Assembly (NCBI GenBank): GCA_021107635.1
Contig: JAIOSL010000038.1
Span: forward strand, 3,512 to 67,511
DNA: 64,000 nucleotides
DNA from: an archaeon
Lineage (GTDB): Archaea > B1Sed10-29 > WALL01 > JAGHAM01
Direction of reading: 5' to 3'
Below are positions 2-52,747 of this stretch, piece after piece. A program made the position numbers and the translations under genes. The notes under the pieces were generated by a model. The model was not told where the DNA came from. It was given only the letters and a program-made list of their open reading frames with translations, and made no database searches. The first letter of the stretch is position 1. The number at the start of each line of letters is the position of its first letter.

Positions 2-1039
2 CAAGAAGACCTCAACGAATTCGTTATCCGACTATCACAACGCTGCGGAAGACACATCTCAGTAGCAGAACCCTTACTAGACGCAGCACTACCAGACGGA
101 TCCAGAGTACAAGCCACGTTCTCCTCTCATCGCGATATCGCAATGCATGGCTCCACGTTCACAATAAGGAAATTCACAAAAGACCCACTCACAATAATAG
201 ACATAGTCAACTTTGGAACAGTCCCCCCAATGATAGCAGCATACCTCTGGCTAGCCATAGAATACGGACACTCCCTACTCATTGCAGGAGGAACAGCAAC
301 AGGAAAAACATCATTCCTAGGCGCGCTCTCCATGTTCTTACCTGCTGACGCAAAAATAGTCAGCATAGAAGACACTCCAGAAGTCAGACTACCACACGAA
401 CACTGGGTACAAAAAGTAGTTAGAACAGGATTCGGAAGAGCAGACTTGACAGGCAGAAAACAAGGCGAAGTCACAATGTACGACTTGCTTAGAGCAGCAC
501 TACGTGAACGTCCAGACGAAATCATCGTAGGAGAAGTAAGAGGAAAAGAAGCATACGTGCTGTTCCAAGGAATGGCTACTGGACACAGTGGAATGGCCAC
601 TATCCACGGAGACTCTGTTGACTCAGTAATGCACCGTTTGCAAACCAAACCAATCAATCTTTCTCCTGGACTAATGCAACACCTAGACATAATCATTATT
701 CTAACTCGAGCAAAAGTAAAAGGCGTTGAAGTAAGACGCGCAAAACAAATCGTTGAAATACTCGGCTTGACACGTGACCAACAACCAATAGTGAACACTC
801 TATTCGAATGGACTCCAGCAGACGAAAGCTTCAAATTTTCTTCAGATAAATCATACATACTACAAGAAATCATTCATGAAAAAGGTGTTGAAGAAAGTGA
901 AGTATGGAAAGAACTTCAAAGAAGAACCAAAATCGTTGAATGGATGAGAAAAAATGATATAAGATACTACAAAGACGTTGGAAAAATAATCCAACGATAC
1001 TACTCAGATCCAGAAGCTATCCTAAGAGGAATAACGTGA
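2..1039 (+). CDS. Type IV filament/archaellum-type assembly ATPase (FlaI/PilB/VirB11 superfamily, T2SSE-like), 5' end cut by window edge
   Basis: Reading frame open from nt 2 (..LPDGSRVQATF..GSTFTIRKF); Walker A GGTATGKTS (nt 287-313), Asp box SIEDTPE, Walker B DEIIVGEVRGKEA, His box TGHSGMATIHG. Confidence 0.85.
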   Translation, partial: QEDLNEFVIRLSQRCGRHISVAEPLLDAALPDGSRVQATFSSHRDIAMHGSTFTIRKFTKDPLTIIDIVNFGTVPPMIAAYLWLAIEYGHSLLIAGGTATGKTSFLGALSMFLPADAKIVSIEDTPEVRLPHEHWVQKVVRTGFGRADLTGRKQGEVTMYDLLRAALRERPDEIIVGEVRGKEAYVLFQGMATGHSGMATIHGDSVDSVMHRLQTKPINLSPGLMQHLDIIIILTRAKVKGVEVRRAKQIVEILGLTRDQQPIVNTLFEWTPADESFKFSSDKSYILQEIIHEKGVEESEVWKELQRRTKIVEWMRKNDIRYYKDVGKIIQRYYSDPEAILRGIT

Positions 1040-1045
1040 GCTAAA

Positions 1046-1927
1046 ATGATCTCCACAAAAAAATACAGTCTCCTTGCATACTCCCTCTTCGAACCAATGA
1101 TACCATCCATACTACCATACTTCTCAAAACTTAAACAAATCCTCCACAAAACAGGAACAAAAACAACCCTAGAAGAATACGTAGCATCATTCATGCTAAC
1201 AGCAACAATACTAGTACCAGGAATATTTCTAGTAATACTAATCTACCTAAACTCCCTACTCAAAACAGGAATAGGACTAACAGTAATCTTTTCAATACTA
1301 GGAAGCCTCATAGTACTAGCAAGCATAATCGCAATATACCTAATGTATCCATCATACAAAGTCAACACACTCAAACACGAACTAGACAAACATATTCCAT
1401 TCGCAGCAATGCACATGGCAACCATTGCCGGAACCGGCGTGCCACCACACATGATATTCAAAATGATAGGAGACTTCGAAGAATACGGAGAAGTAGCCAA
1501 AGTATGCAGAAAAGTCTACAGAAACATCTCAGTGCTAGGTTATGACACCATCAGCGCACTCTCAAAAGAAGCACAAATAACACCCTCAAACAACTTCCGA
1601 GACCTACTCTGGAGTATTGTCGCAGTCACTCGCAGTGGAGGAGATCTCAGAGAAATGCTCTTGAAAAGAGCCGAAGCATTAATGGATGAAGAACGAAGAA
1701 CAGAAGCAAAATATATTGACACACTATCAATGCTAGCAGAAATCTACTCCACAATATTCGTAGCAGGAACAGTAGTAATTTTCGTGCTAGTCGCAATCAT
1801 GGGAATCATCGGAGGACTGCCACTACCAATGAGACTAGTACTACAAGCAACAACATACTTCATAATACCACTAGCATCAATAGCATTTATCCTAGTAATA
1901 GAAAGCAGCAAACCATCAGGAGTCTAA
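1046..1927 (+). CDS. Platform membrane protein, single T2SSF-like domain (FlaJ/TadB-like half)
   Basis: 293 aa; starts 6 nt after ATPase stop; N-terminal TM helices, helical domain (HIPFAAMHMATIAGTGVPP..VAVTRSGGDLREML), C-terminal TM helices. Confidence 0.7.
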   Translation: MISTKKYSLLAYSLFEPMIPSILPYFSKLKQILHKTGTKTTLEEYVASFMLTATILVPGIFLVILIYLNSLLKTGIGLTVIFSILGSLIVLASIIAIYLMYPSYKVNTLKHELDKHIPFAAMHMATIAGTGVPPHMIFKMIGDFEEYGEVAKVCRKVYRNISVLGYDTISALSKEAQITPSNNFRDLLWSIVAVTRSGGDLREMLLKRAEALMDEERRTEAKYIDTLSMLAEIYSTIFVAGTVVIFVLVAIMGIIGGLPLPMRLVLQATTYFIIPLASIAFILVIESSKPSGV

Positions 1928-1929
1928 AA

Positions 1930-3192
1930 ATGGAAGAAAAAAAATCATTCATGGACTGGTTCCTAGGGAAAAAAACCAAAAAAACAACCAAAGCAAACCT
2001 ACCGCTCAAAACCAAAATTAGATATGAACTCAGAAAAGAAAAATGGAAGCCAGTTGCAGCATCAATAGTAACAGCACTAATACTGATTGTACTAGGAACC
2101 ATCTTCTTCAGAACAAACCTTGCACTACTAGTAATAGTAGTGTTTTTCGGCACTAGCATGCCAATAGCAATATACATTTACCTGAAACAAAGAAGACTCG
2201 AAAGCATAGAAGAACAATTTCCAAATTTCCTCAGAGACATAGCAGAATTCAAAAGATCTGGCCTTCCCCTGAACAGAGCCATTCAAAACACAACCAAAAA
2301 TGATTACGGACAACTAACCTCAGAAGTCAAAAGAATGGCACTTGAACTTTCTTGGGGAGTATCATTCCAAAAAACACTCGAAAAATTTTCAGAAAGAACC
2401 AACAGTCACATAATTGAAAGAGCAGTCTCAATAATTGTAGTAGCCCAATCAAGTGGAGGAGAAGTAACCGAAGTTCTAGACACTGTCTCCGCAGACCTAA
2501 GAAAACTCAAAGAAATAGAAAAAGAACGTAAAAGCAAACTCTCAGTCTACACTCTAACAATATACGCAGTCTACCTACTCCTACTCTTCATAATAATCAT
2601 GCTAATGGGCTCCTTTGTGCCATCAATACCAAAAATCCAAGCAGCAGGCAAGTTCATGGGAGGAGGCCTAGAAGAAACTATAACAGAATTTGAGTTTAGG
2701 ACATTGTTATTCCATGTTAGCTTAATAGAAGCATTCTTCGCTGGCCTGATTTCAGGAGACATGGGAGAAGGAAAAATAACTGCAGGAATAAAACACGCCA
2801 TAATTTTAGTACTAATAACAATGCTAGCATTCCAGCTTGTCCCACCAAGTCCAGCAACATACAAAATAGCAGACTCAATATTAGACATCCCGCCATCACA
2901 AGGAACACCAACAGAAGGAATAGAAAGCATAACACATCTTACAGACACCTTCGATAACAAAGAAATAGCACGACTAGTAGGAGAAAAAGCAAAAGAACGA
3001 GGACTCGCACGGCATAAAGGAATAACCTCCGCAGACATCAGCTTCAACGCCCTGTCAGGAGAGTGCATACCATGCGCAGAAGGAAAAATAGTAGTACTAC
3101 CCAACAAAGTCACAGTACACGAACAAGTACCAATAAAATACAAAGTAAGATACTCAGGAACACAATACCAAATAATGTTTAGAACAGCATGA
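1930..3192 (+). CDS. Platform membrane protein, second T2SSF-like domain (FlaJ/TadC-like half) with ~120-aa C-terminal soluble extension
   Basis: 420 aa; FPNFLRDIAEFKRSGLPLNRAI..VVAQSSGGEVTEVL resembles a T2SSF domain; flanking TM helices; 2 nt after previous stop. Confidence 0.7.
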   Translation: MEEKKSFMDWFLGKKTKKTTKANLPLKTKIRYELRKEKWKPVAASIVTALILIVLGTIFFRTNLALLVIVVFFGTSMPIAIYIYLKQRRLESIEEQFPNFLRDIAEFKRSGLPLNRAIQNTTKNDYGQLTSEVKRMALELSWGVSFQKTLEKFSERTNSHIIERAVSIIVVAQSSGGEVTEVLDTVSADLRKLKEIEKERKSKLSVYTLTIYAVYLLLLFIIIMLMGSFVPSIPKIQAAGKFMGGGLEETITEFEFRTLLFHVSLIEAFFAGLISGDMGEGKITAGIKHAIILVLITMLAFQLVPPSPATYKIADSILDIPPSQGTPTEGIESITHLTDTFDNKEIARLVGEKAKERGLARHKGITSADISFNALSGECIPCAEGKIVVLPNKVTVHEQVPIKYKVRYSGTQYQIMFRTA

Positions 3193-3671
3193 GGATTAAA
3201 ATGAAAAAAGGAGTAAGCGGAATAGAATTTATAGTTGCAGTAACATTCTTCCTAATTGCATTCTGGTACGTGTTCATAGAAACAAGCGAAATGATAATGG
3301 ACAAACCAGTGCAAGTCGATGTCAGACAACCAGCACTACAATTCTATTCAGGATACATAATAAAAAATCCAGGTGAACCAGCAGACTGGGATGAAAACCC
3401 AGATGATTTCGCCCTAGCCTACTACGACGAAAAAACACACCGCAACATACTAGACCACACAAAACTAAACTATGCAAACCAAACCAACTGCAGCTCTTTG
3501 ACACCCGCAATAATGAACGGCATAGACATAGGATTCAAAGTAACAAGCCAATACGGAACATGGCAATGCCAAAACCCACCAAGAAAAGACGCAATGATAA
3601 CAAGACTAGTCTACATACACGTTCCCAGAAGAACTCAATACGCAGGCACTTTGGAGGTATGGGTAGCATGA
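3189..3671 (+). CDS. Pilin-like protein with class III (prepilin-type) signal peptide
   Basis: 160 aa; N-terminus MRIKMKKG-VSGIEFIVAVTFFLIAFWYVF (basic residues, Gly, hydrophobic helix, Glu at +5 after Gly); ATGA overlap with upstream gene. Confidence 0.5.
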   Translation: MRIKMKKGVSGIEFIVAVTFFLIAFWYVFIETSEMIMDKPVQVDVRQPALQFYSGYIIKNPGEPADWDENPDDFALAYYDEKTHRNILDHTKLNYANQTNCSSLTPAIMNGIDIGFKVTSQYGTWQCQNPPRKDAMITRLVYIHVPRRTQYAGTLEVWVA

Positions 3672-4111
3672 AAAACATTAAATACCATCACTCCTTCTAT
3701 AAAATAAGAAATAAAGGATTCAGCAAAATACTTGAACTTGTACTAGTGCTTGTTTTGCTATTCTCACTCGTCATAACAGTAAGCCAAAATATTCCACCCA
3801 CAACAACAAGCAAACACAACCTACAAGTACTATCACGCTACGCATCAGACATTAGAAACATGATATGTAACTCCGAGCGCGACAGAAGAATCATGATAAA
3901 AAATGCGACTATGACCACTATCAACCAATCCATCAATTACATAGCACCACCAGATCTCAAACATCGCATAGTAATCCTGAATACCACAGATGACAGCCTA
4001 ATCCAAGCCACGGGATACCCAAACCCAGATGAAGAAAATTTGATGACCGCATCATGCATCATAGTAGATGATGAAACCACAATAGAAGCAGAGGTAATGG
4101 TATGGTACTAG
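3668..4111 (+). CDS. Pilin-like protein (class III signal-like N-terminus)
   Basis: In-frame ATG 3668 forms ATGA overlap with upstream stop (alt ATG 3659 behind GGAGGT); ..KIRNKG-FSKILELVLVLVLLFSLVI; ORF-track start 3560 lies inside the upstream gene. Confidence 0.45.
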   Translation: MKNIKYHHSFYKIRNKGFSKILELVLVLVLLFSLVITVSQNIPPTTTSKHNLQVLSRYASDIRNMICNSERDRRIMIKNATMTTINQSINYIAPPDLKHRIVILNTTDDSLIQATGYPNPDEENLMTASCIIVDDETTIEAEVMVWY

Positions 4112-5379
4112 GAAAACGCGCACAATTCTTTCTCATAATACTAGTATTCATGATAATCATAATCGTCGGCCTTGCTTATTACGCAATAGAATCACGCAAC
4201 CTACCAGCAGAAACCAGTGCAACCCCAGAAAGAGGAACACCACTGCTCTCACAAATAAAATCAGAAATCCTGAATGCACTCGAACGCAAACCATACACAG
4301 GAAAAAACATCAGCGAATACTATACCACGTTTCACAGAGAAGCAAACCGAACCAACTTTGACCTAAGCATAAACTGCAACGAAACAAACACCACAACCGG
4401 AGCAAACAACTACCCAAAATATGACATTGAATGTATACTAGACTTATCCTGGAAAAACGCCAATTTAACCACCAGTTTTACTCATAGTTACACAGTCCCA
4501 TACGAAATAATAACATACTTAGATTCTGATTATACCACAGAAAGCGATTATTTCAACCTTAACGACACAATATACTATAGGATTACAGGAAGAAACAACG
4601 ACAAAATCAACTTTACAGCAACACGCCAAAACACCCAAAAAAACACTCAAAACCACACCCTTTCCGACCACTACTCAGACGGCAGCTTTACAGTAGATGC
4701 AGGAGGAGCCTGGATCCTAAAAGCAGACAACTACAACACCTCAGAAATAAGCTATAAAACAATATATGTACAAGAAATAGAAATAAAAATAACCATTGAA
4801 GGAACATGCCCAGGCTGGTGCCCAAGAAACAGTTACATAAGAGGAGAAAACTTCAGATACAACATTGAAACAATCAACGTAAAAGGTCACCCAGTAAGCG
4901 TACCAATAATGATTACAGTACAACGTCCAGACGGCACACCTCCAGTAGGAGAATACGACCTAGAAACACTAACCAACACAAGCGGCATTTTTATCAGCGA
5001 AAATCAGACAATCCATTCAAGCGAAGTAGTAACAAACCTCACAATAAAAGTCACAGAACTAGACTACTACTCATACAACACCACCACCATCCAAATACTC
5101 GCACAAAACTATGACAGATTCATAGAAGTACCTGCAGAAGACATGAACTACACAGCACTCTCAAATGAAACCTTCAGTTCAACCTGCGGATACGACACTT
5201 GGTTTACCAACAGCACCCAAAACTATTACAACGGAAGCCTCGACATACCATTCTACCGCGAAAAAACTGATGAAACCACAATCAGACTCAACCAAACCAC
5301 AAAAACCATTGACCTACCCCAAGTGCACGCAAAAGTCCTGCACATCATAGGAGCAAGACATAACATAAGTGAAGAATAA
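4102..5379 (+). CDS. Large pilin-like/exported glycoprotein (class III signal-like N-terminus)
   Basis: 425 aa; MVLGKRAQ-FFLIILVFMIIIIVGLAYY; many N-x-S/T sequons (NETNTTTGANN, NLTTS, NFTAT); short overlaps with both neighbours. Confidence 0.5.
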   Translation: MVLGKRAQFFLIILVFMIIIIVGLAYYAIESRNLPAETSATPERGTPLLSQIKSEILNALERKPYTGKNISEYYTTFHREANRTNFDLSINCNETNTTTGANNYPKYDIECILDLSWKNANLTTSFTHSYTVPYEIITYLDSDYTTESDYFNLNDTIYYRITGRNNDKINFTATRQNTQKNTQNHTLSDHYSDGSFTVDAGGAWILKADNYNTSEISYKTIYVQEIEIKITIEGTCPGWCPRNSYIRGENFRYNIETINVKGHPVSVPIMITVQRPDGTPPVGEYDLETLTNTSGIFISENQTIHSSEVVTNLTIKVTELDYYSYNTTTIQILAQNYDRFIEVPAEDMNYTALSNETFSSTCGYDTWFTNSTQNYYNGSLDIPFYREKTDETTIRLNQTTKTIDLPQVHAKVLHIIGARHNISEE

Positions 5380-8708: not shown

Positions 8709-9029
8709 ATGAAGATAAGTAAAGCAGAACTAGCAGACACGTGGTACAAAAGAGCACTAGGATTAATGTTCAGAACCAAACAAGAAAAACCATTAATATT
8801 CAAACTAGGCAGAGAAAGCCTTCTTGGAGCAAACATTCACTGCTGTTTCATGCGGTTCCCCATTGACGTGCTTTTCTTGAACGCGCAGAAGTGTGTGGTT
8901 GATAAAGCTTTGAACGTGAAGCCGTGGACTTTGAACGTGGCGCCAAGAAAACCAGCCAAGTATATCATTGAATTTCCAGTAGGACAAGGAACCGCCAAAC
9001 TCGGAGAACAAATCGAATGGAAAGAATAA
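8709..9029 (+). CDS. DUF192-family protein
   Basis: 106 aa; ..RALGLMFR..FMRFPIDVLFLN..KPW..KYIIEFPVG fits the DUF192 pattern as recalled (GLM-R, P-x-D-h-h-F, Y-h-h-E). Confidence 0.55.
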   Translation: MKISKAELADTWYKRALGLMFRTKQEKPLIFKLGRESLLGANIHCCFMRFPIDVLFLNAQKCVVDKALNVKPWTLNVAPRKPAKYIIEFPVGQGTAKLGEQIEWKE

Positions 9030-13593: not shown

Positions 13594-13751
13594 ATATATT
13601 ATATTTGTATAAACCTATTTATTAGTTCCTTTTATAAAAGCATATAAATGCATATTCTTTTATGTCTTTTTGTGTGCAATATCAAGTTAACCATTAACTA
13701 GTTGTAACAAACTAGTATTAGTGTGGCTATATGCCATGGGGGTGGTAACGT

Positions 13752-13985: not shown

Positions 13986-14014
13986 AGGGGTTAACGCCCC
14001 CTCACCTTTTTTTT
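13985..14014 (+). terminator. Hairpin plus T8 tract
   Basis: GAGGGG (13985-13990) / CCCCTC (13998-14003) stem, then TTTTTTTT 14007-14014, directly after the stop codon. Confidence 0.4.
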
Positions 14015-14071
14015 AGGAAATGTTTTTAAACCATAACAACGTAATTAGAACTTATAACCGGGGGGTTTAGA

Positions 14072-23267: not shown

Positions 23268-23325
23268 ATGAGAGAATACGATAAACTAGGTTATAAATGT
23301 TATCTGGAGGAAGATTACGGTATTA

Positions 23326-23454: not shown

Positions 23455-23463
23455 TTAAACACC

Positions 23464-42103: not shown

Positions 42104-42113
42104 AGATACAATT

Positions 42114-42149
42114 AGCGCGCTCCAAAAGCGCGCGCTCTCTTCTTTTTTT
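42114..42149 (+). terminator. GC-rich hairpin plus T7 tract after the 2877-aa gene
   Basis: AGCGCGC (42114-42120) pairs with GCGCGCT (42130-42136); TTTTTTT at 42143-42149; conspicuous in AT-rich context. Confidence 0.55.
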
Positions 42150-42188
42150 GTAGTAAAGATTAAATAAATCCTCTTCTTATCTTAGAGT

Positions 42189-45100: not shown

Positions 45101-48100
45101 CGCACTAGAAATGGAAGACACACTCCACCTAAAAATAGAACTTCAAGCCATCGCACCAACAGAAGGACAATACTACGAAACATACATTTTCGAAGACTAT
45201 GACGACCTGAAATTCAAAATAATAGAACTAGACGGAGAAAACAACGAAACAACAGAAGTAACCAACATAACCTCAAGCAACAGAGCCTGGCAAACATACA
45301 TCTGCGCGCCGCCAACATTCATACCTGGATGCGGATGGGGAACAATAAACGAAACCAAAATAGAACAAGGCTACCTTCTGCCAGTCTGGTCACAACAAGG
45401 TGCACGCAACTTCCAATTCAAATTCACATTAAACAACATTGGAGACCAAGACAAAGTACTAGACTTTGCTGCAACCGGAGCAATAACACTAGATTATATC
45501 CCACAAGATATAATAGTGCCTGCAGGAAGCTCAGTCAGCACATTCATTAACGGAACAGGCCTCGCTTCCACACAAGGAACACTTGAAATATCCATGGGAT
45601 TAGATGGAGGTACAATGAAACTATGGAAAACCGCAAACTTCGGTCAAGTAGACTATGAATATACACTATGGACAACCACAAGTATGATAGAACTAGAAGA
45701 AGAAGTTCTCACAAACATCGACTCACTAAAAGCAAAGCTATCCCGAAACGGAAACGCACTAGAAGACAACGCAATAAAAGTAGAATTCCAGTGCTGGGAA
45801 GGCGGAGACTACAACAACGTCAAAACACTATGGAGAGACAACGACTACTACAAATACGAAACCGCACTCCAACTAGAACCAGGAGAAAACGCGTGCATAC
45901 TCTTCGCAGAACACCCAGAAATCGGAAGCATGGGCAAATTCTACCACGTACAAGGAATGAAAATTGAACCAATTGGAAGTGATTTCCCACTACATACATT
46001 TAGTCAAGACTATCAAGAATACAGCATTGACATAGTAATGATTAATTCCTCATGGCTAGAACCTAAAAACTTTACGCTTGACACACTTGAATTCTTTGAA
46101 CTAACAGAAGCATACGACATGACAATACAAGTAGAAACATTCAATCAAGATGGAAGCACATATGACACAAAAAGCTCCACAACACCAATAACAGAAAACA
46201 TAACCATCCCAGAACAAGGAAGCGCACTCATAACATTAATAGCAACATATGATCCCCCTTCAGTAGGAAATGAACCATTATGCAGCCAAAGCGGCTTTGA
46301 CTTCAATGGAAACATTAAAATCACACCATACTCACAGCCAACAACACAATACAACTATAATTATAACTGTACTGCAGGAGGATCTGGAGGTGGATGGGGA
46401 GACTGTGAATGTGACAGAGATGGAGACACAATTACAACAGAATTAACTGCAGCAGATTCATCCGAAATACACACAGTAAACTTAATATCAAAAACAGAAG
46501 AAGACCTAGAAGTTACCATAGATTTCTCCGAAGACTCAGATGCCACATCTAAAGGCTACACGATGACACCAAGCATAAAAATATATAATTCTACAGATGA
46601 CTTAATTGAACAACAAACCGTCTCCCCTGGAACACCAATAATAGTAACACTCCCAGCTGAAGGGACCATTAAATTCCAACTAAATGCTTCAATAGACCCC
46701 CTAGAACAAGAAGGTAATGGTTGGACATGTGAAGGAGGGCTTGGTTGGTATGCATACAACATACTAACATTTACTCCAGAAGGAAACTCAGACAAAGAAG
46801 TATACTTCATACACACATGCAGCAAAACTGGAGGAAATGGAGGAGCTACAGGAGAATTAATACTCAGAGAAACACTCACTCCAACAGAAATTCTAGGCAC
46901 AGACTACGATTATTCTTGTGATTACATAGAAGATGTAAAAACAAGACTATGCGACGCAAAACAACTAGCAAATGCAATAAAAAGATTCAAACAAGACTAT
47001 GAAGAAGACATGCCCCTAAGCCTTACAGCAACATTTGCTTTCGGAGAAGACCATCTAGACAAACCAGACATGGAAAAAGCCACAGGAAACACAGTATCAT
47101 TTAATCCGGATAACCATCAAGCAGAATTAGTTTTTGACTTACAAGGTGCTACAGCAATAACCTGCGGAGTGATATCAGTAACGGCAACAAGACAAGCAGA
47201 AGGATACACTCTCCTAACAATAAACAATGACCAAAACAAACCATGGTGTGATTCAACCCCGAAAAAACCATACTTTTTCACAGGAACTGCAAACTATGAT
47301 GAAGGACTATCAACAGACAGCGAAAACACAAAATACATGAGATTTGAAGGAGATGACACAGAACTAACCTACTTCAAAAATGCAATGCTAACCTCAATAA
47401 ATGGCATTGAAATAGAAGATGTACTAGGATATCACTACAAAGGAGGAGCAGACCTAGAAAAACCAGGAACCACAATACCTCCAATCCACGTAATATACAA
47501 TGACCTAAACTGCACAGAAGAAGGAGACAGCGGCCCAAGAGATTATCTTGACTGTCCAAAACCAGATGGAACACCAGTAGATTTAGCTTGGCTGCAACAA
47601 GCATTCAGAGAACAAGGACACGAACTAGGAGGATACTATCATTATGTACAAGACAATGGAGTAGACAAATTTTACATAGGCCTTATATACTCCAGTGCTA
47701 CCCTAACAGAAAATAGTGATCTTAACCTAATGAGGAGACTGCTAGTAGGAAACCTTATGAGTCACTGGACAATAGGAAACAACTCATGCATACAAGACGA
47801 AGAAGAAGAACTCATACTAAGAGGCTCAACAACCTGTGGATACTGCTCTTCAGGAATATATGATGAGATACTCTTAGAAGAATACACTACTACAAAACCA
47901 AGCACAACAACACCAAAAGAGTCAGTAGGAAAATCACCAGACCATAACAGTATAGGAATACACCTAAAAGTTCATTTAGATGCAGGCAAATGCAAAATAT
48001 GGAACAAACAAAAAGAAACCAACGTCCAATGGATAACCCGCGGAGACGGAAACTGGAACAGCAATGAATTCACAGAAAACTTCCCAATAGACACAACAGG

Positions 48101-49082
48101 AATGACCGAACAACACAAAGTAGAAGAAAATGACATTGCAGTAAGATGCTTCACAATTGGAGGTTCACCAGGAAAAGAACTGCCAAAAGAAAGAGAAGTC
48201 ACAATAGACTATCAAGAACCAGAAATAACAGTTAGTTCTACAAACTATAACAAAAAAGAAGGAAACCTCTATAACCTAACATTTTACGTCCAAGACAACT
48301 TTGACGTCGAAAGCTGTAGCGTCAAATACCTAAACGATACAGACCAAGACGGAACACACGAAGAATACGACTGCCCACAATGCTCATGCGAAACAATAGC
48401 ACCAAACCAGCCAGGAGACACACAAATAGAAACACAATGCGAACTCTATCTCGCACAAGAAATGGATGCAACCGAATGCGGAGGAGAACAAAAAGGCAGC
48501 GAATGCCACAACAAATTCAAAATCACATGCACAGACGAAAATGCTAACGAAATAAGTGCAGATGTATCAGTAGCAAATGGAGAATCTTCACTAAACATAA
48601 CCTTCCCCAATGAAATCTTCGCTGCATTAATAAGACTAACAGGAAACTATGGAATCGCTACAACAGAACCAGGATACATAGAACCAAAAAACGCAAGCAC
48701 TAAAGTAGTATACAAAGAATCAAACAATGTATACTATACCAACTCAGAAGTAAATGACCTAGAATTCCACATAATGGGAAACTACAATATTGACGAAACG
48801 TGTGTTATGTACTTAAGAGACCCTGATGATCCAGATGGAACAGAACTAGGAACAAGTTGGTATGACCAAGTACACTACCCCAGCACGATAACATCAATAG
48901 TAGGAGAATCAACACCAACAGATAAAAAATTCTATCTTTCAACCACCTCAGACGAAATAAAACTAAAAGAAGATGGACATTACCTCTTCAGAGTAATATG
49001 CGGAATCCCAGAAAACTATGATAATCTGCAAGCAGAGGGAGGAACCCTCAACGACCTAACAGAAGATTCACCACTTCCTTGA
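42189..49082 (+). CDS. Giant surface protein (2297 aa), paralogue of the upstream gene
   Basis: 6.9-kb uninterrupted ORF; 28 of the first 53 aa identical to the 33470 gene product without gaps; same TM position; CarboxypepD_reg-like motifs (GAKVSVVQGGWARTETTGTDGKVEFKRVPRGEATV). Confidence 0.9.
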   Translation: MPVKDYYYEIEDQYYSLLDKLDEKGIPVYNLVDPLEERGIPTFPLLIGLVLLLLLLFIYFLVGGFGQSLTIDLMGNSIGTFDLPTIHNVLGGTLPWIDDIIPVLNIGDEITIKVNVNSNDAPLEGAKVSVVQGGWARTETTGTDGKVEFKRVPRGEATVTAKKENCSKETKTINETGEITFNLKCGLSWPGVEGCMEIDETLYKANLVGTDNKRPEQCTLAIYDNQTKTVNLDWRIDPIKNILYIDPSECVISDYVVVIDCLAHERRDQARIIIIEMDGIGDVRLNPKDTNPTDCPPGEQWDDALLECVPITNPCGDNEIWNEELQECIPIIPDDEVAIYIVVNDTNGDYLSGITVKAIDSTGAEITEGTTQDVTGTAGTATLSLKENQNFRITAEDPKGDYSTITTGEYVADETQTITITMEAGAQTTIRVIDKEDKSRISGAVVWLYEIPHTEVTNTNGEVELTLPASETFKVQVYKNYSPYIGIESSVNSGEVNIIELEKVLPIMSGNLTLTAKNYHDHEETMEGVTFKVTTKIGNVTQKSCITDSNGECYMPFLEKGDYNVYATPRMGESQHAGDVTIVAGTTTEKTFYVKPATTLLKIWVKHGNNPYTPNAMVSILTENQFNEWEIMPGMSGETDGYGYKEFEIPKNTKIKVKGTHDESGTHYSAIWGPQTITESEKEITLELKKTEVAISFSPEMELTPKDTKTGNLYFGLPYVDEVTQTKYDTILIELWVGSDGEATDPIATPILINGFNSNSLEQDDVSVLRCSKYPCSSSSCCNIGDGEQFKYLKLEIQNTDEFYEDIGTASIELELYAKEILSTDHTYVNMKGTWTSTAGDRTSENKTLINLTSGSPWTPHPPPGEGFTGHRAGYTEDPFQEKPWSPQWSTYNGSNFYLMIDAVAAGDMSTYQIKIEDQPDAKSYLMINNYNISITKQDGTQLSESKKTLNQKLPTGGYNINPVADLGNYYALEMEDTLHLKIELQAIAPTEGQYYETYIFEDYDDLKFKIIELDGENNETTEVTNITSSNRAWQTYICAPPTFIPGCGWGTINETKIEQGYLLPVWSQQGARNFQFKFTLNNIGDQDKVLDFAATGAITLDYIPQDIIVPAGSSVSTFINGTGLASTQGTLEISMGLDGGTMKLWKTANFGQVDYEYTLWTTTSMIELEEEVLTNIDSLKAKLSRNGNALEDNAIKVEFQCWEGGDYNNVKTLWRDNDYYKYETALQLEPGENACILFAEHPEIGSMGKFYHVQGMKIEPIGSDFPLHTFSQDYQEYSIDIVMINSSWLEPKNFTLDTLEFFELTEAYDMTIQVETFNQDGSTYDTKSSTTPITENITIPEQGSALITLIATYDPPSVGNEPLCSQSGFDFNGNIKITPYSQPTTQYNYNYNCTAGGSGGGWGDCECDRDGDTITTELTAADSSEIHTVNLISKTEEDLEVTIDFSEDSDATSKGYTMTPSIKIYNSTDDLIEQQTVSPGTPIIVTLPAEGTIKFQLNASIDPLEQEGNGWTCEGGLGWYAYNILTFTPEGNSDKEVYFIHTCSKTGGNGGATGELILRETLTPTEILGTDYDYSCDYIEDVKTRLCDAKQLANAIKRFKQDYEEDMPLSLTATFAFGEDHLDKPDMEKATGNTVSFNPDNHQAELVFDLQGATAITCGVISVTATRQAEGYTLLTINNDQNKPWCDSTPKKPYFFTGTANYDEGLSTDSENTKYMRFEGDDTELTYFKNAMLTSINGIEIEDVLGYHYKGGADLEKPGTTIPPIHVIYNDLNCTEEGDSGPRDYLDCPKPDGTPVDLAWLQQAFREQGHELGGYYHYVQDNGVDKFYIGLIYSSATLTENSDLNLMRRLLVGNLMSHWTIGNNSCIQDEEEELILRGSTTCGYCSSGIYDEILLEEYTTTKPSTTTPKESVGKSPDHNSIGIHLKVHLDAGKCKIWNKQKETNVQWITRGDGNWNSNEFTENFPIDTTGMTEQHKVEENDIAVRCFTIGGSPGKELPKEREVTIDYQEPEITVSSTNYNKKEGNLYNLTFYVQDNFDVESCSVKYLNDTDQDGTHEEYDCPQCSCETIAPNQPGDTQIETQCELYLAQEMDATECGGEQKGSECHNKFKITCTDENANEISADVSVANGESSLNITFPNEIFAALIRLTGNYGIATTEPGYIEPKNASTKVVYKESNNVYYTNSEVNDLEFHIMGNYNIDETCVMYLRDPDDPDGTELGTSWYDQVHYPSTITSIVGESTPTDKKFYLSTTSDEIKLKEDGHYLFRVICGIPENYDNLQAEGGTLNDLTEDSPLP

Positions 49083-49271: not shown

Positions 49272-49583
49272 GTGGTATTTGAAATCCTAGGAGAAATAAA
49301 AAACAGTTTTGAACTCCTAATGCTAGGATTCAAAATAGTCCTCATGATATTCCTAATAGGCTGGGTAAGAGGACATCTAGGAGGAGGACTCATAGCAGCA
49401 GTAGTCATACTAATCCTAGGATACTTTGTAATATTCGAATACTTCATAATATTCGGACCAATGTTCCTATTCTACCTCATAATAATCATAGGAGGCGGAG
49501 TAGTAGTCCAAGACCTAGCATTCGGCAAAGAACACTACACTAAAGGCGGAAATGACTACAGTGAAGGATACCCACACCCATAA
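49272..49583 (+). CDS. Small membrane protein 1 of 8 (about 3 TM)
   Basis: GTG start downstream of TATA-like box; 103 aa, hydrophobic Gly-rich helices, short polar tail. Confidence 0.5.
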   Translation: MVFEILGEIKNSFELLMLGFKIVLMIFLIGWVRGHLGGGLIAAVVILILGYFVIFEYFIIFGPMFLFYLIIIIGGGVVVQDLAFGKEHYTKGGNDYSEGYPHP

Positions 49584-49681
49584 GGTGATAAAAAACGAAA
49601 ATAAATCAAAAAGGATTCCTGCCAGCCCTAGCTGGAATACCGCTAGCACTAATCGTAATAGTAACAATATTCCTATTCCTA

Positions 49682-49951
49682 ATGGTAGGACTTCCCGCAA
49701 TCATGGAATTCTTTCCTATACTCAAGCTGCTCTTCATGCTCTTCGCAGCACTAATCATATTCAACTGGATAAGAAACACAGTAGGACCCGGAACACTATC
49801 CCTAGTAATCGCAGCAATACTAATATACATATTCGTATTCCAACTCACATGGATCACCTGGGGAATATGGGTAATGTACGCACTACTAACATACGGACTA
49901 TGGTCAATACTCTTCTGGGGCATACCACTCGTATTCAAAGGAAAAACTTAA
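49682..49951 (+). CDS. Small membrane protein 2 of 8
   Basis: 89 aa from the first ATG; hydrophobic; in-frame upstream codons 49592-49681 encode a further TM helix without a canonical start. Confidence 0.5.
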   Translation: MVGLPAIMEFFPILKLLFMLFAALIIFNWIRNTVGPGTLSLVIAAILIYIFVFQLTWITWGIWVMYALLTYGLWSILFWGIPLVFKGKT

Positions 49952-49991
49952 AAAAGAAAGAATGCAAAAAATATGTAAGAGGTAGTTGGTT

Positions 49992-50231
49992 ATGGGAGAT
50001 ATATTCAACGACGTGCGACTCGCACTAACACTGATAGTACTAATATACCTATCCCAATGGGCCATATCAGGAACCGGCTCAAGAAAGATAGGAATAGTAG
50101 TAGCACTCGTGCTCGTATACCTCACAGTTTACCAACACTTCATACTACTAGTACTAGTAATGGCATTCTTCTTCGGATATGCCTTCTTTGAATCATTTGA
50201 ATCAACATTCATCCCATTAAATCCAGAATAG
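49992..50231 (+). CDS. Small membrane protein 3 of 8
   Basis: ATG 49992 8 nt after AGAGGT (TTG 49986 alt); 79 aa, 2-3 TM. Confidence 0.5.
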   Translation: MGDIFNDVRLALTLIVLIYLSQWAISGTGSRKIGIVVALVLVYLTVYQHFILLVLVMAFFFGYAFFESFESTFIPLNPE

Positions 50232-50241
50232 AGGTAAAAAA

Positions 50242-50541
50242 ATGATAGACACATTCACACTAGTGGTCTTCCTCATCCTAATAATGATAACACTGCAAGT
50301 TCAACGCCTAGAAATAGCAGCAGTAATCATACTCATATTCCTACTAACCCTCAAATCACACACAATGATATTCATAGTCCTAATCGCAGGAGCAATAGGC
50401 TACATAGTACACCAAACACTAGGAATAGAACTACAACTAGTCATGATAAGCATAGTAGTCCTCATAATCGCAGCAGCAATGTTCACAAACAAAAAAGAAG
50501 GCCCAGGCGCGTACACGCCAGGAATGTTTGGAGTGATATGA
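50242..50541 (+). CDS. Small membrane protein 4 of 8
   Basis: 99 aa; GAGGT SD; ~3 TM; tail KKEGPGAYTPGMFGVI. Confidence 0.5.
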   Translation: MIDTFTLVVFLILIMITLQVQRLEIAAVIILIFLLTLKSHTMIFIVLIAGAIGYIVHQTLGIELQLVMISIVVLIIAAAMFTNKKEGPGAYTPGMFGVI

Positions 50542-50886
50542 ATGGATGTGCTCACGCTAGTACTGCTTTTTCTCATAATAGTGATGGGCATGACAGTTCC
50601 AAACATGCAATTCATTTCATTGATTGGAGGAATAATCATGGCAACATACATTTTTGGAGCTAGAGAAGACCATCGACCTCCAGCACCTGCAGGAGGAATA
50701 AAAGTCAGGCCAATAGTAGTACAAAGAAGATATGTAGGACCAGACTCAATATACCCTCAAGAAATGAAAATGAGAGTAAATCCAGCCTGGGACAGCAGAC
50801 CATGGTTTGAACAAGCATCTGCTGCAGCAGGACAGTTCGCTGGATTCGTAGCTAACACAGGCAAACCCAGTAGACCAAAGGATTAA
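50542..50886 (+). CDS. Small membrane protein 5 of 8, PAGG-motif family
   Basis: 114 aa; ATG abuts previous TGA; 2 TM then RPPAPAGGIKVRPIVVQ..MKMRVNPAW..GQFAGFV. Confidence 0.6.
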   Translation: MDVLTLVLLFLIIVMGMTVPNMQFISLIGGIIMATYIFGAREDHRPPAPAGGIKVRPIVVQRRYVGPDSIYPQEMKMRVNPAWDSRPWFEQASAAAGQFAGFVANTGKPSRPKD

Positions 50887-50925
50887 AATACCACAAAATG
50901 TATATTTATTGCATTGGGTGTGTGA

Positions 50926-51315
50926 ATGGATAAACCGATAGGTTTAATGATAGTAGTGGCGTTGCTAGCGTTCTTTCTTAAATTAGAATGGCTGGCAATG
51001 GTCATGATAATAGGAATACTGCTCATTCTAGTTGCATCCATAGAGTTAAGAAGACCTTCTCCAGTACCAGCAGGAGGAAGAAAAGAGGAGATTCTCACTC
51101 CTGTAGTAGTTCAAGACCTAGGAGAACCACCTTATTTGTACCCACCGAACTTTGAGCTCAAATATAATCCGAACGAATCATTGATGCCACTTTATGATAT
51201 AGCAGGACAATCACTAGGCTCACTAGTAAGATTCTTCGTTAGAGCAGCAAGAGGAGACCCTCAAGCATACAGAAGCGGCAAAGGCAAAGTTGGCAGAAAG
51301 GTGAAATGGAGATAA
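50926..51315 (+). CDS. Small membrane protein 6 of 8, PAGG-motif family
   Basis: 129 aa; 2 TM then RRPSPVPAGGRKEEILTPVVVQ..FELKYNPNE..GSLVRFFV; basic tail. Confidence 0.6.
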   Translation: MDKPIGLMIVVALLAFFLKLEWLAMVMIIGILLILVASIELRRPSPVPAGGRKEEILTPVVVQDLGEPPYLYPPNFELKYNPNESLMPLYDIAGQSLGSLVRFFVRAARGDPQAYRSGKGKVGRKVKWR

Positions 51316-51319
51316 GAAC

Positions 51320-51685
51320 ATGGATTTAGATATGCTGCTTTTGTTAGTGATTTTAGGAGGACTTACTTATTACTCGCCTTATCAATGGGCAGCATACATA
51401 ATCGGAGCGATAATTCTTCTCGTCTTCTTGGTTGGAGGAACCAACAGCAAGAAACAAGACTATCGCATCCCTGTAGGGGGAGTGCGAGTGCATGGAGCTG
51501 AAATGGTTGAACCAATCATAATAGAAACGACCAAGACAGCTCCCTTCCGCATACCAAAAAGCATTGATATGAAAGTCAATCCAACCTGGAAAGCATTAAG
51601 CCAACTAGAAAAAATGAGTTATAAGGGAGGCGCAGGCTTAGCCAGGTTTGTTTACCGGAGTGTGTTTGGAGGTAGGTGGGAGTGA
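51320..51685 (+). CDS. Small membrane protein 7 of 8, PAGG-motif family (PVGG variant)
   Basis: 121 aa; 2 TM then YRIPVGGVRVHGAEMVEPIIIE..IDMKVNPTW..AGLARFVY. Confidence 0.6.
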   Translation: MDLDMLLLLVILGGLTYYSPYQWAAYIIGAIILLVFLVGGTNSKKQDYRIPVGGVRVHGAEMVEPIIIETTKTAPFRIPKSIDMKVNPTWKALSQLEKMSYKGGAGLARFVYRSVFGGRWE

Positions 51686-52104
51686 ATCCATTCCTCCTGA
51701 CAATAGCTATTGCTTTTTTTGGTTTGTTGTTCAATGCACAATGGCTTTTCTTGTTAGGTGCATTAGGACTCATCATAACAGCATTATTCAAACTTACTGC
51801 CAAGCCAATACGTGCTCCGGCAGGAGGAACCGTGGTTTCACATAAACTAATGCAGGCTCCGATAGACGCATGGGATGAAGAGAACATTGCCACGTACATG
51901 ACTGCATTGGGAGGACAGAGAACTCTTACCATGGGTAACATGGATGATCCGTTCAAAGTACTCTCAGATAGCAGTAAAGGATCAGTACCAGCTGATTTAA
52001 TACGTAATAGGCTTCCTTTCAGTAATTATGGCAGAGAAAGCCTTTTCGAACATTTTTTCATTGGTCTGCCAATTAACATGGGCACACTATTCCGAAAGAA
52101 GTGA
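51676..52104 (+). CDS. Small membrane protein 8 of 8, PAGG-motif family (divergent tail)
   Basis: GTG start overlapping previous gene; 2 TM then KPIRAPAGGTVVSHKLMQAPID; longer divergent tail. Confidence 0.5.
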   Translation: MGVNPFLLTIAIAFFGLLFNAQWLFLLGALGLIITALFKLTAKPIRAPAGGTVVSHKLMQAPIDAWDEENIATYMTALGGQRTLTMGNMDDPFKVLSDSSKGSVPADLIRNRLPFSNYGRESLFEHFFIGLPINMGTLFRKK

Positions 52105-52138
52105 AAGTTTATTAAACGGGATTGCTTTAAAGAGGTTT

Positions 52139-52747
52139 ATGCGAGCCTCTAGCGCAATTTTATTTTTGATTCTAGTTTCTGGAGCATTTGCAATAGAACC
52201 AGTAATAAACAAAGAAGATTTAACTGAACTTGGCTGCACAGTAGAAGAAAACTATGTTATGTGTCCTCAAGTAGCAACTGTCAGAAACGCTCAAATACAA
52301 TACACCAGTGACGTAGAATGCCAAACTTTGCTTGGAGAAGACCAAGGATGCATAGGCACAGCAAAAATTGGTGAAATTAAGTTCAAAGAATGTCAAGTAT
52401 ACATGCCTTTACTCCAAGGAGACGTTGATTACAGTGGAGTGCAATACAATTATAATTGCATAGACAAAGAACTGCCCGCAAACACAGAAGTCAACATTGT
52501 TACGTTTCAAGATTTGGTAACTGATTGCACGCTGGTTGAAGGCGATGAATACTATGAAGTCAAAACTTGCAAAACCAGCGGGTCAAGAATAATAGCTAAC
52601 ATTTCCGTGTCTGAAGAAGAAGGAGAAAAATATGTTCTGGTAGGAAACTCTTTTCCTGACACTGGCTTCCACTTTGAATTATGGCAATTTGCTGTACTGA
52701 TTGTCTTGGCAATAGCTTTGTGGGTATGGTACAAAAACAGAAAATAG
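52139..52747 (+). CDS. Secreted Cys-containing protein with C-terminal TM anchor (202 aa)
   Basis: ATG 52139 behind AGAGGT gives signal peptide MRASSAILFLILVSGAFA-IEP; 8 Cys; C-terminus ..FPDTGFHFELW-QFAVLIVLAIALWVW-YKNRK. Confidence 0.6.
   Translation: MRASSAILFLILVSGAFAIEPVINKEDLTELGCTVEENYVMCPQVATVRNAQIQYTSDVECQTLLGEDQGCIGTAKIGEIKFKECQVYMPLLQGDVDYSGVQYNYNCIDKELPANTEVNIVTFQDLVTDCTLVEGDEYYEVKTCKTSGSRIIANISVSEEEGEKYVLVGNSFPDTGFHFELWQFAVLIVLAIALWVWYKNRK

What the first reader, a model, noticed from the sequence alone, without database searches (positions are those of the whole stretch)
2..52747. Fifty-kilobase cell-surface supercluster combining three type-IV-filament motors with giant exoproteins
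Seen: between nt 2 and ~52.7 kb most genes fall into a few surface-related classes. These are FlaI/PilB-type ATPases (3 copies), T2SSF-like platform proteins (5 genes), class-III-signal pilin-like proteins (10-11), and giant or Cys-rich exported proteins (578, 743, 1105, 1563, 2297, 2877 aa). There is also one exosortase/archaeosortase-like protein and 8 small polytopic membrane proteins in tandem. Known: described archaeal type IV pilus loci (Aap, Ups, Epd, archaellum) have one ATPase, one platform and a few pilins. Inference: the density and the operon-like co-oriented blocks (2-11898 plus, 15549-30591 minus, 30656-52747 plus) suggest one integrated attachment or host-interaction apparatus. 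This would suit a small-genome episymbiotic archaeon. I know of no described system with this composition.
Basis: partly seen in the sequence, partly recalled or inferred. Interest (0 to 1): 0.8.

Follow-up and report, generated by a model that had tools for sequence, protein, structure and literature searches.

The report
Conserved DPANN cell-surface gene supercluster
A 50-kb stretch of a tiny (DPANN) archaeon's genome packs three pilus-type motors, a sortase-like enzyme with its likely target, and giant surface proteins, and the same package recurs in distant relatives, so it is a promising candidate for how these cells build their attachment surface.

Summary
The window holds three FlaI/PilB-type ATPases, five T2SSF platform genes, ten class-III-signal pilin-like genes and one exosortase/archaeosortase-family gene. 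It also holds six large exported proteins and eight small membrane proteins.

The organism is a DPANN archaeon close to Candidatus Iainarchaeum. The whole order recurs in all four relatives I could test on long contigs, down to 58% identity of the best-conserved ATPase. The core around the third ATPase stays clustered even where gene order is rearranged.

New points:
- The sortase-like gene keeps an invariant Cys/Arg/His set.
- The 1563-aa protein carries a matching, undescribed C-terminal signal, [LIV]PxxP[ET], then a membrane helix and a basic tail.
- The giants share a conserved ~45-residue N-terminal cytoplasmic motif, found in 934 protein clusters, mostly giants.
- The small membrane proteins are a fixed-order set, not just tandem paralogues.

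Corrections:
- The interval 12.6-15.5 kb holds housekeeping genes.
- No prepilin peptidase lies in the window.
- "One integrated apparatus" and host attachment remain inference.

Verdict: a new variant of known kinds, only sketchily noted in the literature I could search.

The parts
2..1039 (+). ATPase 1, C-terminal 345 aa (gene cut by the window start); FlaI/PilB3-type
   Evidence: Pfam T2SSE E 4.3e-35, PilB3_C 29 bits. Full-length homologues are 600-802 aa.
1046..3192 (+). Two single-domain T2SSF (TadB/TadC-like) platform genes, 1046-1927 and 1930-3192
   Evidence: PF00482 E 6.9e-16 and 2.5e-18.
3189..5379 (+). Three pilin-like genes: 3189-3671, ~3668-4111 (start uncertain) and 4102-5379
   Evidence: N-termini MKKG|VSGIEF..., NKG|FSKILEL... 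and GKRAQ|FFLIIL..., each followed by one hydrophobic helix. Same position in relatives. No Pfam hit.
5379..8699 (+). Secreted Cys-rich protein, 1106 aa with 105 Cys, in a variable 'cargo slot'
   Evidence: Sec-type signal peptide and 105 Cys, no family hit. The slot holds 1634 aa, 613 aa or a 4101-aa LamG protein in relatives, or nothing.
8709..9029 (+). DUF192 protein, constant partner of ATPase 2
   Evidence: PF02643 E 4e-13. Immediately upstream of the Fer4-ATPase, and one 199-aa gene away.
9075..10637 (+). ATPase 2: N-terminal multi-[4Fe-4S] domain fused to a TadA/FlaI-type ATPase
   Evidence: T2SSE E 6.5e-40 plus Fer4 families. 14 invariant Cys plus Walker A and B, Asp and His boxes in alignment A2.
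10640..11898 (+). Two short T2SSF platform genes, 10640-11179 and 11176-11898
   Evidence: PF00482 E 5.6e-15 and 4e-13.
11923..12669 (+). PAC2-family protein, conserved directly after the ATPase-2 platform pair
   Evidence: PF09754 E 1.5e-46. Same position in L093, L094, L095, L103, L105, L171, L172, L173, L008 and L009.
12655..15533 (.). Embedded housekeeping genes (Lrp/AsnC regulator, flavin reductase, deoxyhypusine synthase); probably passengers
   Evidence: Pfam. Flavin reductase and/or DHS are retained at this place in relatives.
15549..20240 (-). 1563-aa secreted protein with C-terminal sorting signal IPTRPE + TM helix + RTRLKKR; predicted sortase substrate
   Evidence: Sec signal peptide. 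The signal [LIV]PxxP[ET] + TM + basic tail is on 13 distinct proteins of 1400-1650 aa; every one whose locus reaches the ATPase3 region is in a g27-positive locus. No Pfam or PDB match.
20286..20735 (-). 4-TM membrane protein (149 aa) ending the pilin operon
   Evidence: Homologues of 142-150 aa sit at the same place in close relatives. It has no Asp, so it is not an A24 peptidase.
20757..24448 (-). Six pilin-like genes in fixed family order, reading away from the platform gene: three of one family (23999-24448, 23464-23943, 22665-23267), then 21958-22674, 21401-21961 and 20757-21410
   Evidence: N-termini such as EKGQ|AFDAFKLLIAAVV. Families were found in 37-47 of about 50 evaluable loci and in the same order from Iainarchaeum to Micrarchaeia.
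24445..26544 (-). Platform protein of ATPase 3 (699 aa, at least 9 TM), divergent T2SSF/FlaJ type
   Evidence: Present in 60 of 68 evaluable loci.
26522..28810 (-). ATPase 3 (762 aa), FlaI/GspE fold with lineage-specific N- and C-terminal extensions
   Evidence: T2SSE E 5e-21. At least 51% identity to all 120 listed relatives, spanning two phyla. AF2 pLDDT 82; Foldseek FlaI 4IHQ and GspE 2OAP at E 1e-27.
28855..30591 (-). Secreted Cys-rich protein, 578 aa with 47 Cys counted over the longer 642-aa ORF; variable insert between ATPase 3 and the sortase-like gene
   Evidence: Present only in the closest relatives and absent in L006 and L007.
30656..31180 (+). Small exosortase/archaeosortase-family protein (174 aa)
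   Evidence: TIGR04178 40.9 bits against cut-off 23; all named subfamilies below cut-off. Invariant C79, N118, R121 and H141 in 49 family members. Found in 43 of 60 loci; in the 46 tblastn hits it is always on the strand opposite ATPase 3, at a median of 368 bp from it.
31197..33428 (+). 743-aa protein with pilin-type N-terminus KRG|FSIFTPMVGT
   Evidence: Family N-terminus [KR]GF[ST][LV]FTP[LM]VGT is conserved, with lengths of 257-743 aa, and always lies next to the giant gene.
33470..49082 (+). Two paralogous giant proteins, 33470-42103 (2877 aa) and 42189-49082 (2297 aa): conserved N-terminal cytoplasmic motif, one TM helix, Ig-like and Ca-binding repeats
   Evidence: CarboxypepD_reg and SpaA domains. 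Paralogy at 24% identity over 1241 aa, E 2e-51. N-motif alignment. 934 cluster representatives carry the motif. TSP3-like repeats at 41617-41934.
49272..52104 (+). Array of eight small membrane proteins: 49272-49583, 49682-49951, 49986-50231, 50242-50541, 50542-50886, 50926-51315, 51320-51685 and 51676-52104
   Evidence: The first three families keep their order right after the giant gene in six other genomes. The last four include a paralogous group with a P-x-GG motif. No Pfam hits.
52139..52747 (+). Cys-rich secreted protein with a C-terminal TM anchor (about 202 aa)
   Evidence: One weak homologue only. Membership in the cluster is uncertain.

Best explanation
The region is a lineage-wide, co-inherited cell-surface gene neighbourhood of Iainarchaeota and Micrarchaeota (DPANN). 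It is built from two coupled modules.

Module A/B (2-12.7 kb):
- It encodes an Epd/Tad-like type IV pilus set: a PilB3-like ATPase, two TadC-like platform proteins, three pilins and a variable large secreted protein.
- It also encodes a second, pilin-less motor: a [4Fe-4S]-domain ATPase, two short platform proteins, DUF192 and a PAC2-family protein.

Module C (15.5-52.7 kb):
- A highly conserved FlaI/GspE-fold ATPase and a divergent platform protein assemble a fixed set of six pilin-like proteins.
- Beside them a small archaeosortase-family enzyme probably cleaves the [LIV]PxxP[ET]-TM-basic signal of the 1563-aa protein and fixes that protein to the membrane.
- One or two giant proteins with a conserved cytoplasmic N-motif are displayed as Ig-like, Ca-binding adhesin-like stalks.
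- They are accompanied by a pilin-headed 743-aa protein and a fixed-order set of small membrane proteins.

Shown: gene identities, catalytic residues, signals, and conservation of linkage.

Inferred: processing, assembly, physical cooperation, and a role in adhesion or host contact.
For: Components.

Full supercluster order in four other genomes:
- ERZ10759799 NODE_1, 1.17 Mb.
- SAG AM-311-L14.
- JGI Ga0373629_0000001: loci at 229.9-251.6 kb and 248.6-270.8 kb overlap, and it has two tandem giants.
- Micrarchaeota B47_G15.

Partial A/B-to-sorting-signal-protein linkage is seen in L102, L103 and L172.

Core frequencies among 80 species-level loci: platform 60/68, pilin families 37-47 of about 50, sortase-like 43/60, giant with N-motif 26/39.

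The same families remain clustered after rearrangement in L011, L019 and L038. In L011 the sortase-like gene sits next to its proposed substrate.

Other support:
- Sortase triad invariant in 49 sequences.
- Sorting signal on 13 distinct large proteins; every one whose locus reaches the ATPase3 region is in a sortase-positive locus.
- Giants: dN/dS about 0.35 with saturated dS, and intact in independent assemblies.
- No GC anomaly.
Against: - There are no expression, proteomic or imaging data.
- Housekeeping genes (Lrp, flavin reductase, DHS) lie inside the block, so part of the linkage may be inherited order.
- No prepilin peptidase is in the window. One is adjacent to ATPase 1 in a single relative only.
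- In AR10, I. andersonii and some Micrarchaeia the 1500-aa protein and/or the sortase-like gene and giant are not within 10 kb of ATPase 3.
- The pilin fold could not be verified (AF2 pLDDT 38).
- Nothing shows contact between the giants and the motor.
Confidence: 0.62

Rival explanations
1. Juxtaposition by descent. The region holds three independent pilus loci, an unrelated sortase system and unrelated surface proteins. They sit together only because gene order is slow to change in these small genomes, and there is no functional integration across the 50 kb.
For: - Lrp/AsnC, flavin reductase and deoxyhypusine synthase are embedded, and some travel with the block.
- Blocks lie on different strands.
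- In AR10 and I. andersonii I found no g16-family protein and no ATPase1/2-block genes within the visible flanks of module C.
Against: - Module C families stay together through at least three different rearrangements.
- All four long-contig relatives tested keep the A/B-to-C order at 58-77% ATPase identity.
- The sortase-like gene keeps a fixed divergent position next to ATPase 3.
Confidence: 0.25
2. Module C is not an adhesive pilus. It is a type II-secretion-like pseudopilus machine, essential to these lineages, that inserts, extrudes or displays the giant N-anchored proteins through the S-layer. The conserved cytoplasmic N-motif serves as the recognition handle.
For: - A fixed-order set of about six distinct pilin-like families is conserved across phyla, as with Gsp pseudopilins (the comparison is from my own knowledge).
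- ATPase 3 is unusually conserved, at 51% identity or more across the 120 listed relatives, and carries inteins in several homologues.
- The giant's N-motif is conserved in 934 clusters and always sits at residue 1 of giants.
- The G|F[ST]LFTP head of the 743-aa neighbour resembles bacterial (pseudo)pilins.
Against: - It rests purely on context.
- No archaeal T2SS-like secretion has been described (my knowledge).
- The giants have an ordinary TM helix that Sec/YidC could insert.
- The giant is missing from the visible flank in about a third of loci.
Confidence: 0.2
3. The region is a mobile genomic island or conjugative element that carries pilus genes.
For: Golyshina et al. 2017 (PMC5498576) speculated that type IV pilus genes in genomic islands of Mia14 might be conjugative. 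Toxin-antitoxin genes are inserted in the pilin operon of L006.
Against: - GC content is uniform at 0.38-0.43 apart from one 2-kb bin of 0.49 inside the Cys-rich gene.
- There is no integrase, relaxase or VirB4/VirD4.
- Housekeeping genes are embedded.
- The same chromosomal context (GGR, prenyltransferase, PAC2, DHS) recurs in distant genomes.
- Relatives occur in 298 species genomes.
Confidence: 0.03

Closest known systems
Archaeal clade 1/2 type IV pili with two TadC-like platform genes (Methanococcus maripaludis Epd pili; Haloferax PilB3/PilC3), as classified by Makarova, Koonin and Albers 2016 (PMC4858521)
   Same: It has a FlaI/TadA-type ATPase, two single-domain T2SSF proteins, several class-III-signal pilins and large adhesin-like or S-layer-like proteins in the locus. 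ATPase 1 carries the PilB3_C domain.
   Different: Two ATPase/platform sets sit in tandem. The second set has an N-terminal multi-[4Fe-4S] domain, no pilins of its own, and constant DUF192 and PAC2 partners. The whole set is linked to a third system.
Bacterial type II secretion and Com pseudopilus systems (GspE/F plus five pseudopilins)
   Same: One ATPase and one platform work with a fixed-order set of about six distinct pilin-like proteins. One partner has a G|F[ST]L head.
   Different: The host is an archaeon with no outer membrane or secretin. The ATPase is of the FlaI/GspE-archaeal fold. No secretion function is shown.
Archaeosortase/exosortase systems (ArtA with PGF-CTERM in Haloferax; ArtB with VPXXXP-CTERM; bacterial PEP-CTERM/EpsH)
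   Same: The family signature model is passed and the Cys/Arg/His set is invariant. A neighbouring large secreted protein carries a motif, a TM helix and a basic tail at its C-terminus.
   Different: It scores below the cut-off of every named subfamily, the best being ArtB at 42.5 against 150 bits. The signal motif [LIV]PxxP[ET] was not found described. The gene has a fixed divergent position next to a pilus ATPase.
DPANN type IV pilus 'dark-matter islands' and Micrarchaeota pilus loci (Makarova et al. 2019, PMC6393860, Fig. 2A; Golyshina et al. 2017, PMC5498576)
   Same: FlaI, TadC and TadB occur with surface proteins and unrecognisable pilins in DPANN genomes. Two pilus systems and LamG giants linked to them occur in Mia14.
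   Different: Those papers do not describe the three-motor block, the sortase link, the giant N-motif family or the small-membrane-protein array. In Mia14 the two systems are about 80 genes apart, judging by locus tags.
Giant surface proteins of other DPANN (for example the SPEARE proteins of Nanohaloarchaeum antarcticus; my own knowledge)
   Same: They are multi-thousand-residue, repeat-rich, presumed host-contact proteins in small-genome archaea.
   Different: No sequence relationship was tested. The giants here are defined by a distinct N-terminal motif and by their linkage to a pilus motor.

Membership tests
Type IV filament (TFF) systems | PilB/FlaI/GspE-class ATPase with Walker A and B, Asp box and His box | tested here: met
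   T2SSE hits for all three ATPases. Invariant GSGKT, EDTxE, GE(V/I)R and T-H motifs in alignments A1, A2 and A8. The ATPase 3 model matches FlaI and GspE.
Type IV filament (TFF) systems | Polytopic T2SSF (PilC/FlaJ/TadB-C) platform protein next to the ATPase | tested here: met
   Four clear PF00482 hits. The fifth is confirmed by family scan and hhalign at 97%.
Type IV filament (TFF) systems | Subunits with a class III signal peptide and the pilin fold (N-terminal helix plus a beta domain) | tested here: inconclusive
   Sequence motifs and a single N-terminal helix are present in ten genes. There are no Pfam pilin hits. The AF2 model is unusable beyond helix 7-35 (pLDDT 38).
Type IV filament (TFF) systems | Dedicated prepilin peptidase (A24: PibD/FlaK/EppA) | tested here: not met
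   No Peptidase_A24 hit among the window ORFs. One is found immediately upstream of ATPase 1 in relative L172. The window begins inside ATPase 1, so the gene may lie just outside.
Archaellum | Archaellins (FlaA/B) and FlaH, FlaF/G, FlaC/D/E or FlaX accessory genes | tested here: not met
   No such Pfam or NCBIfam hits. The FlaI equivalog model scores 144-192 bits against a cut-off of 550.
Exosortase/archaeosortase family | Family signature model and the catalytic Cys, Arg and His | tested here: met
   TIGR04178 40.9 bits against 23. C79, R121 and H141 are invariant in 49 sequences.
Exosortase/archaeosortase family | Cognate proteins with a tripartite C-terminal signal (motif, TM helix, basic cluster) | tested here: met
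   [LIV]PxxP[ET] + TM + K/R tail is on the 1563-aa protein and on 12 further distinct large homologues or analogues; every one whose locus reaches the ATPase3 region is in a sortase-positive locus. Cleavage is not testable here.
Named archaeosortase subfamilies (ArtA-ArtE and others) | Score above the subfamily's curated cut-off | tested here: not met
   ArtB 42.5 against 150, ArtD 20.7 against 125, and all others are lower.
Known Micrarchaeota S-layer protein (SLP_Mh type) | S-layer domains of the TIGR01564/TIGR01567 type | tested here: not met
   The 1563-aa protein and 10 relatives have no Pfam, NCBIfam or PDB match. SLP_Mh is described in bioRxiv 10.1101/2021.04.28.441871.

The most novel reading that the evidence does not exclude
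Module C (ATPase 3, platform, six ordered pilin-like proteins, the pilin-headed large protein, the small-membrane-protein set and the archaeosortase-like enzyme) is a previously unrecognised, near-universal and possibly essential machine of Iainarchaeota and Micrarchaeota. It uses a type IV filament motor to deploy giant proteins, recognised through their conserved ~45-residue cytoplasmic N-motif. It also builds a sortase-anchored surface layer. That would make it, in effect, an archaeal secretion or display system for host contact.
Probability: 0.25. Interest if true: 0.85.

Novelty: new variant of a known kind. Interest (0 to 1): 0.65.

Why it matters
How DPANN archaea recognise and hold on to other cells is an open question, and few molecular candidates exist.

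This work defines a concrete gene set. It is conserved in at least 298 species-level genomes for its core ATPase. It includes a new sorting signal, a new family of giant proteins marked by a diagnostic N-motif, and a fixed set of small membrane proteins.

The set can be looked for directly in the cultivated Micrarchaeota and followed by proteomics and cryo-ET.

It also gives annotation handles for several large 'dark matter' families.

Tried and rejected
- Archaellum: rejected, because there are no archaellins or accessory genes.
- The 149-aa 4-TM protein as a hidden prepilin peptidase: rejected, because it has no Asp residues.
- The 1563-aa protein as the known Micrarchaeota S-layer protein: no shared domains.
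- Mobile island: no supporting genes and no GC anomaly.
- The two Cys-rich proteins as paralogues: not supported (E 0.056).
- Homologue search with the 90-aa N-motif of the giant returned nothing, because the word index failed on a short query. It was replaced by the exhaustive profile search.
- A pilin model from three window paralogues was too poor to use.
- Papers on cultivated Micrarchaeota (PMC8784108, PMC11329633, PMC8975820) say nothing about this locus.
- dN/dS values are rough because dS is saturated.

Full report
**Organism and gene map**

ORF listing, composition and Pfam/NCBIfam scans give a compact gene map with a purine-rich coding strand. The housekeeping genes are archaeal: deoxyhypusine synthase, PAC2, family B DNA polymerase and PyrBI.

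The 762-aa ATPase is at least 51% identical to the 120 best-scoring proteins listed. Those that carry a source name are called Candidatus Diapherotrites, Iainarchaeum, Micrarchaeota, DPANN group or simply archaeon. The closest named genome is a Ca. Iainarchaeum MAG at 77%. A 77% relative sits on a 1.17-Mb contig, which fits a small genome. The same DNA occurs in two independent assemblies.

**Check of the observation**

- ATPases: 2-1039 (truncated by the window start; T2SSE plus PilB3_C), 9075-10637 (T2SSE with an N-terminal 4Fe-4S domain) and 26522-28810.
- Platform proteins: four clear T2SSF hits. The fifth, the 699-aa protein at 24445-26544, scores below Pfam's cut-off by itself. However, 11 of 13 family members hit PF00482, and a profile-profile comparison with the window's other T2SSF proteins gives 97% probability.
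- Pilin-like genes: ten show a [KR]-G/A-Q head and a single hydrophobic helix.
- Large exported proteins have the stated sizes.
- The 174-aa protein passes the exosortase/archaeosortase signature model.
- Eight small membrane ORFs follow the giants.

Corrections are as follows.

- The interval 12655-15533 holds Lrp/AsnC, flavin reductase and deoxyhypusine synthase genes.
- The ORF 49552-50028 is spurious.
- The cluster is cut at the window start.
- No A24 prepilin peptidase is in the window.

**Synteny test**

Neighbourhoods of exact homologues were fetched, and the full order was found in every long contig tested.

The order is: ATPase 1, two T2SSF genes, small pilin-like genes, a variable large protein, DUF192, the Fer4-ATPase, two T2SSF genes, PAC2, flavin reductase and/or DHS, a 1500-1650 aa protein, pilins, the platform, ATPase 3, the sortase-like gene and the giant(s).

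- ERZ10759799 NODE_1.
- SAG AM-311-L14, where the two loci lie on one contig about 15 kb apart.
- JGI Ga0373629_0000001, where the two fetched loci overlap and two giants lie in tandem as here.
- Micrarchaeota MAG B47_G15, at only 58% and 42% identity for ATPases 3 and 2.

Shorter contigs repeat parts of this order.

- DUF192, ATPase 2, two T2SSF genes and PAC2 recur.
- A protein with the same C-terminal signal follows in L102, L103 and L172.

**Breadth of the core**

A scan of one genome per species found 298 genomes with a relative of ATPase 3. Eighty loci with up to 10 kb on each side were analysed with iterative HMM searches on their ORFs. The counts below give loci in which the family was found, out of those with enough flank to see it.

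| Component | Present / evaluable loci |
|---|---|
| Platform | 60 / 68 |
| Pilin families | 37-47 of about 50 |
| Sortase-like gene | 43 / 60 |
| Giant with the conserved N-motif | 26 / 39 |
| 1563-aa protein family | 12 / 44 |

In the 46 tblastn hits the sortase-like gene is always on the strand opposite ATPase 3, at a median of 368 bp from it.

In L011, L019 and L038 the same families are arranged differently but remain together. In L011 the sortase-like gene lies directly beside the 1544-aa protein. Retention through rearrangement argues for selection on linkage, at least within module C.

Conversely, in AR10, I. andersonii and some Micrarchaeia parts are missing from the visible flanks. 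The full block is therefore not universal.

**The sortase system**

All 49 family members keep C79, N118, R121 and H141. This is the Cys/Arg/His set known for exosortases and archaeosortases (my knowledge of the ArtA work). No named subfamily cut-off is reached.

The 1563-aa protein ends in IPTRPE, a hydrophobic helix and RTRLKKR. Across loci, 13 distinct proteins of 1400-1650 aa end in [LIV]PxxP[ET], a helix and a basic tail. Every one whose locus reaches the ATPase3 region lies in a locus that also has the sortase-like gene. This family has no Pfam, NCBIfam or PDB match. It is unlike the described Micrarchaeum S-layer protein. Cleavage and lipid anchoring are inferred by analogy.

**The giants and their companions**

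The two giants are paralogues: 24% identity over 1241 residues, E 2e-51. They contain CarboxypepD_reg/SpaA-type Ig-like domains. The first also carries thrombospondin-type-3-like acidic repeats.

Their first ~45 residues form a conserved motif, Y..[IL]E[DE]K[WFY][YF]..LD.L[DE].KG[IV]P[VI]Y...DP[IL]E..GIP[ST][FL]P, followed by the only TM helix. An exhaustive profile search of 1.84 billion cluster representatives found 934 proteins at E up to 1e-3 and 250 at E up to 1e-10. The full-length ones are mostly 1300-4300 aa with the motif at residue 1.

Next to the giant there is always a protein of 257-743 aa with the head [KR]GF[ST][LV]FTP[LM]VGT.

Downstream lies the small-membrane-protein array.

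- The first three genes are distant relatives of one another.
- They keep their order in six other genomes.
- A 2-TM family with a P-x-GG motif accounts for several of the later genes.

The array is therefore a conserved multi-subunit set rather than simple tandem duplication.

The giants evolve fast (49% identity to the 77% relative) but show dN below dS.

**The motors**

ATPase 3 was modelled with 65 homologues (pLDDT 82). It superposes on FlaI (4IHQ, 4II7) and A. fulgidus GspE (2OAP) at E about 1e-27 over about 540 columns. That leaves an N-terminal region of roughly 190 residues and a C-terminal helical extension unmatched. Several homologues carry inteins.

ATPase 2 has 14 invariant cysteines ahead of a TadA/FlaI-type core. 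It is accompanied by DUF192 and PAC2 but has no pilins of its own. Whether it acts on the pilins of ATPase 1 (for example in retraction or redox-gated assembly) is speculation.

**Literature**

- Makarova et al. 2016 describe archaeal clade 1/2 pili with two TadC genes, adhesins and S-layer-like proteins.
- Makarova et al. 2019 show a DPANN 'dark-matter island' with FlaI, TadC, TadB and surface proteins.
- Golyshina et al. 2017 report two pilus systems, one FlaK and LamG proteins in Mia14.
- None of these, nor the papers on cultivated Micrarchaeota, describes the three-motor block, the sortase link, the signal, the N-motif family or the membrane array.
- The search covers open-access text only.

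**Verdict**

The linkage is real and conserved. The parts belong to known kinds: type IV filament systems, an archaeosortase system and giant adhesin-like proteins. They occur in a combination, and with signals, that I did not find described.

Functional integration and a role in attachment remain inference. The main rival is inherited juxtaposition.

Noticed in passing
window 59990-60110 (-): Rfam finds a tRNA of 121 nt (49.4 bits), presumably intron-containing. ARAGORN reported no tRNA in the window.
   Followed up: no
window 11923-12669; L093, L094, L095, L103, L105, L171, L172, L173, L008, L009: A PAC2-family (proteasome-assembly-chaperone-like) gene follows the Fer4-ATPase platform pair in nearly every relative, even at about 40% identity. 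It may be a dedicated partner rather than a housekeeping passenger.
   Followed up: partly
homologues P0011, P0014, P0083 and P0118 of window 26522-28810: Several ATPase 3 homologues carry intein/homing-endonuclease domains (PF14528, PF14890). These are usually seen in highly conserved, important proteins.
   Followed up: no
window 41617-41934: Tandem 69/138-nt repeats encode thrombospondin-type-3-like acidic Cys-containing units (DxDxDGxGDxCDNC) near the C-terminus of the 2877-aa giant.
   Followed up: partly
window 5379-8699 and the equivalent slot in L008, L009, L171, L172: The gene between the ATPase-1 pilins and DUF192 is a hypervariable slot. It holds a 1106-aa Cys-rich protein here. In relatives it holds 1634 aa, 613 aa or a 4101-aa LamG/DUF2341 protein, or nothing.
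   Followed up: partly
L172 4158-4901: A Peptidase_A24 / Arc_PepC_II prepilin peptidase lies directly upstream of ATPase 1 in one relative. The window starts inside ATPase 1, so the cluster probably extends beyond the window's left end.
   Followed up: partly
window 33470-49082 (composition bins 34-48 kb): AT skew is very strong (up to +0.50) on the coding strand of the giant genes, higher than elsewhere in the window.
   Followed up: no
window 52748-55259: A HerA-like DUF87 ATPase (53617-54747, weak hit) is flanked by two coiled-coil proteins on the opposite strand, just outside the finding. Its function was not examined.
   Followed up: no
L059, L073, L076: Contigs carrying this archaeal ATPase 3 locus are deposited under bacterial names (Falkowbacteria, Chloroflexi/Chloroflexota MAGs). 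This is probably mis-binning.
   Followed up: no
L006 16029-16523 and 19696-20094: SocA_Panacea and PIN toxin-antitoxin-type genes are inserted inside the pilin operon of a 71% relative.
   Followed up: no
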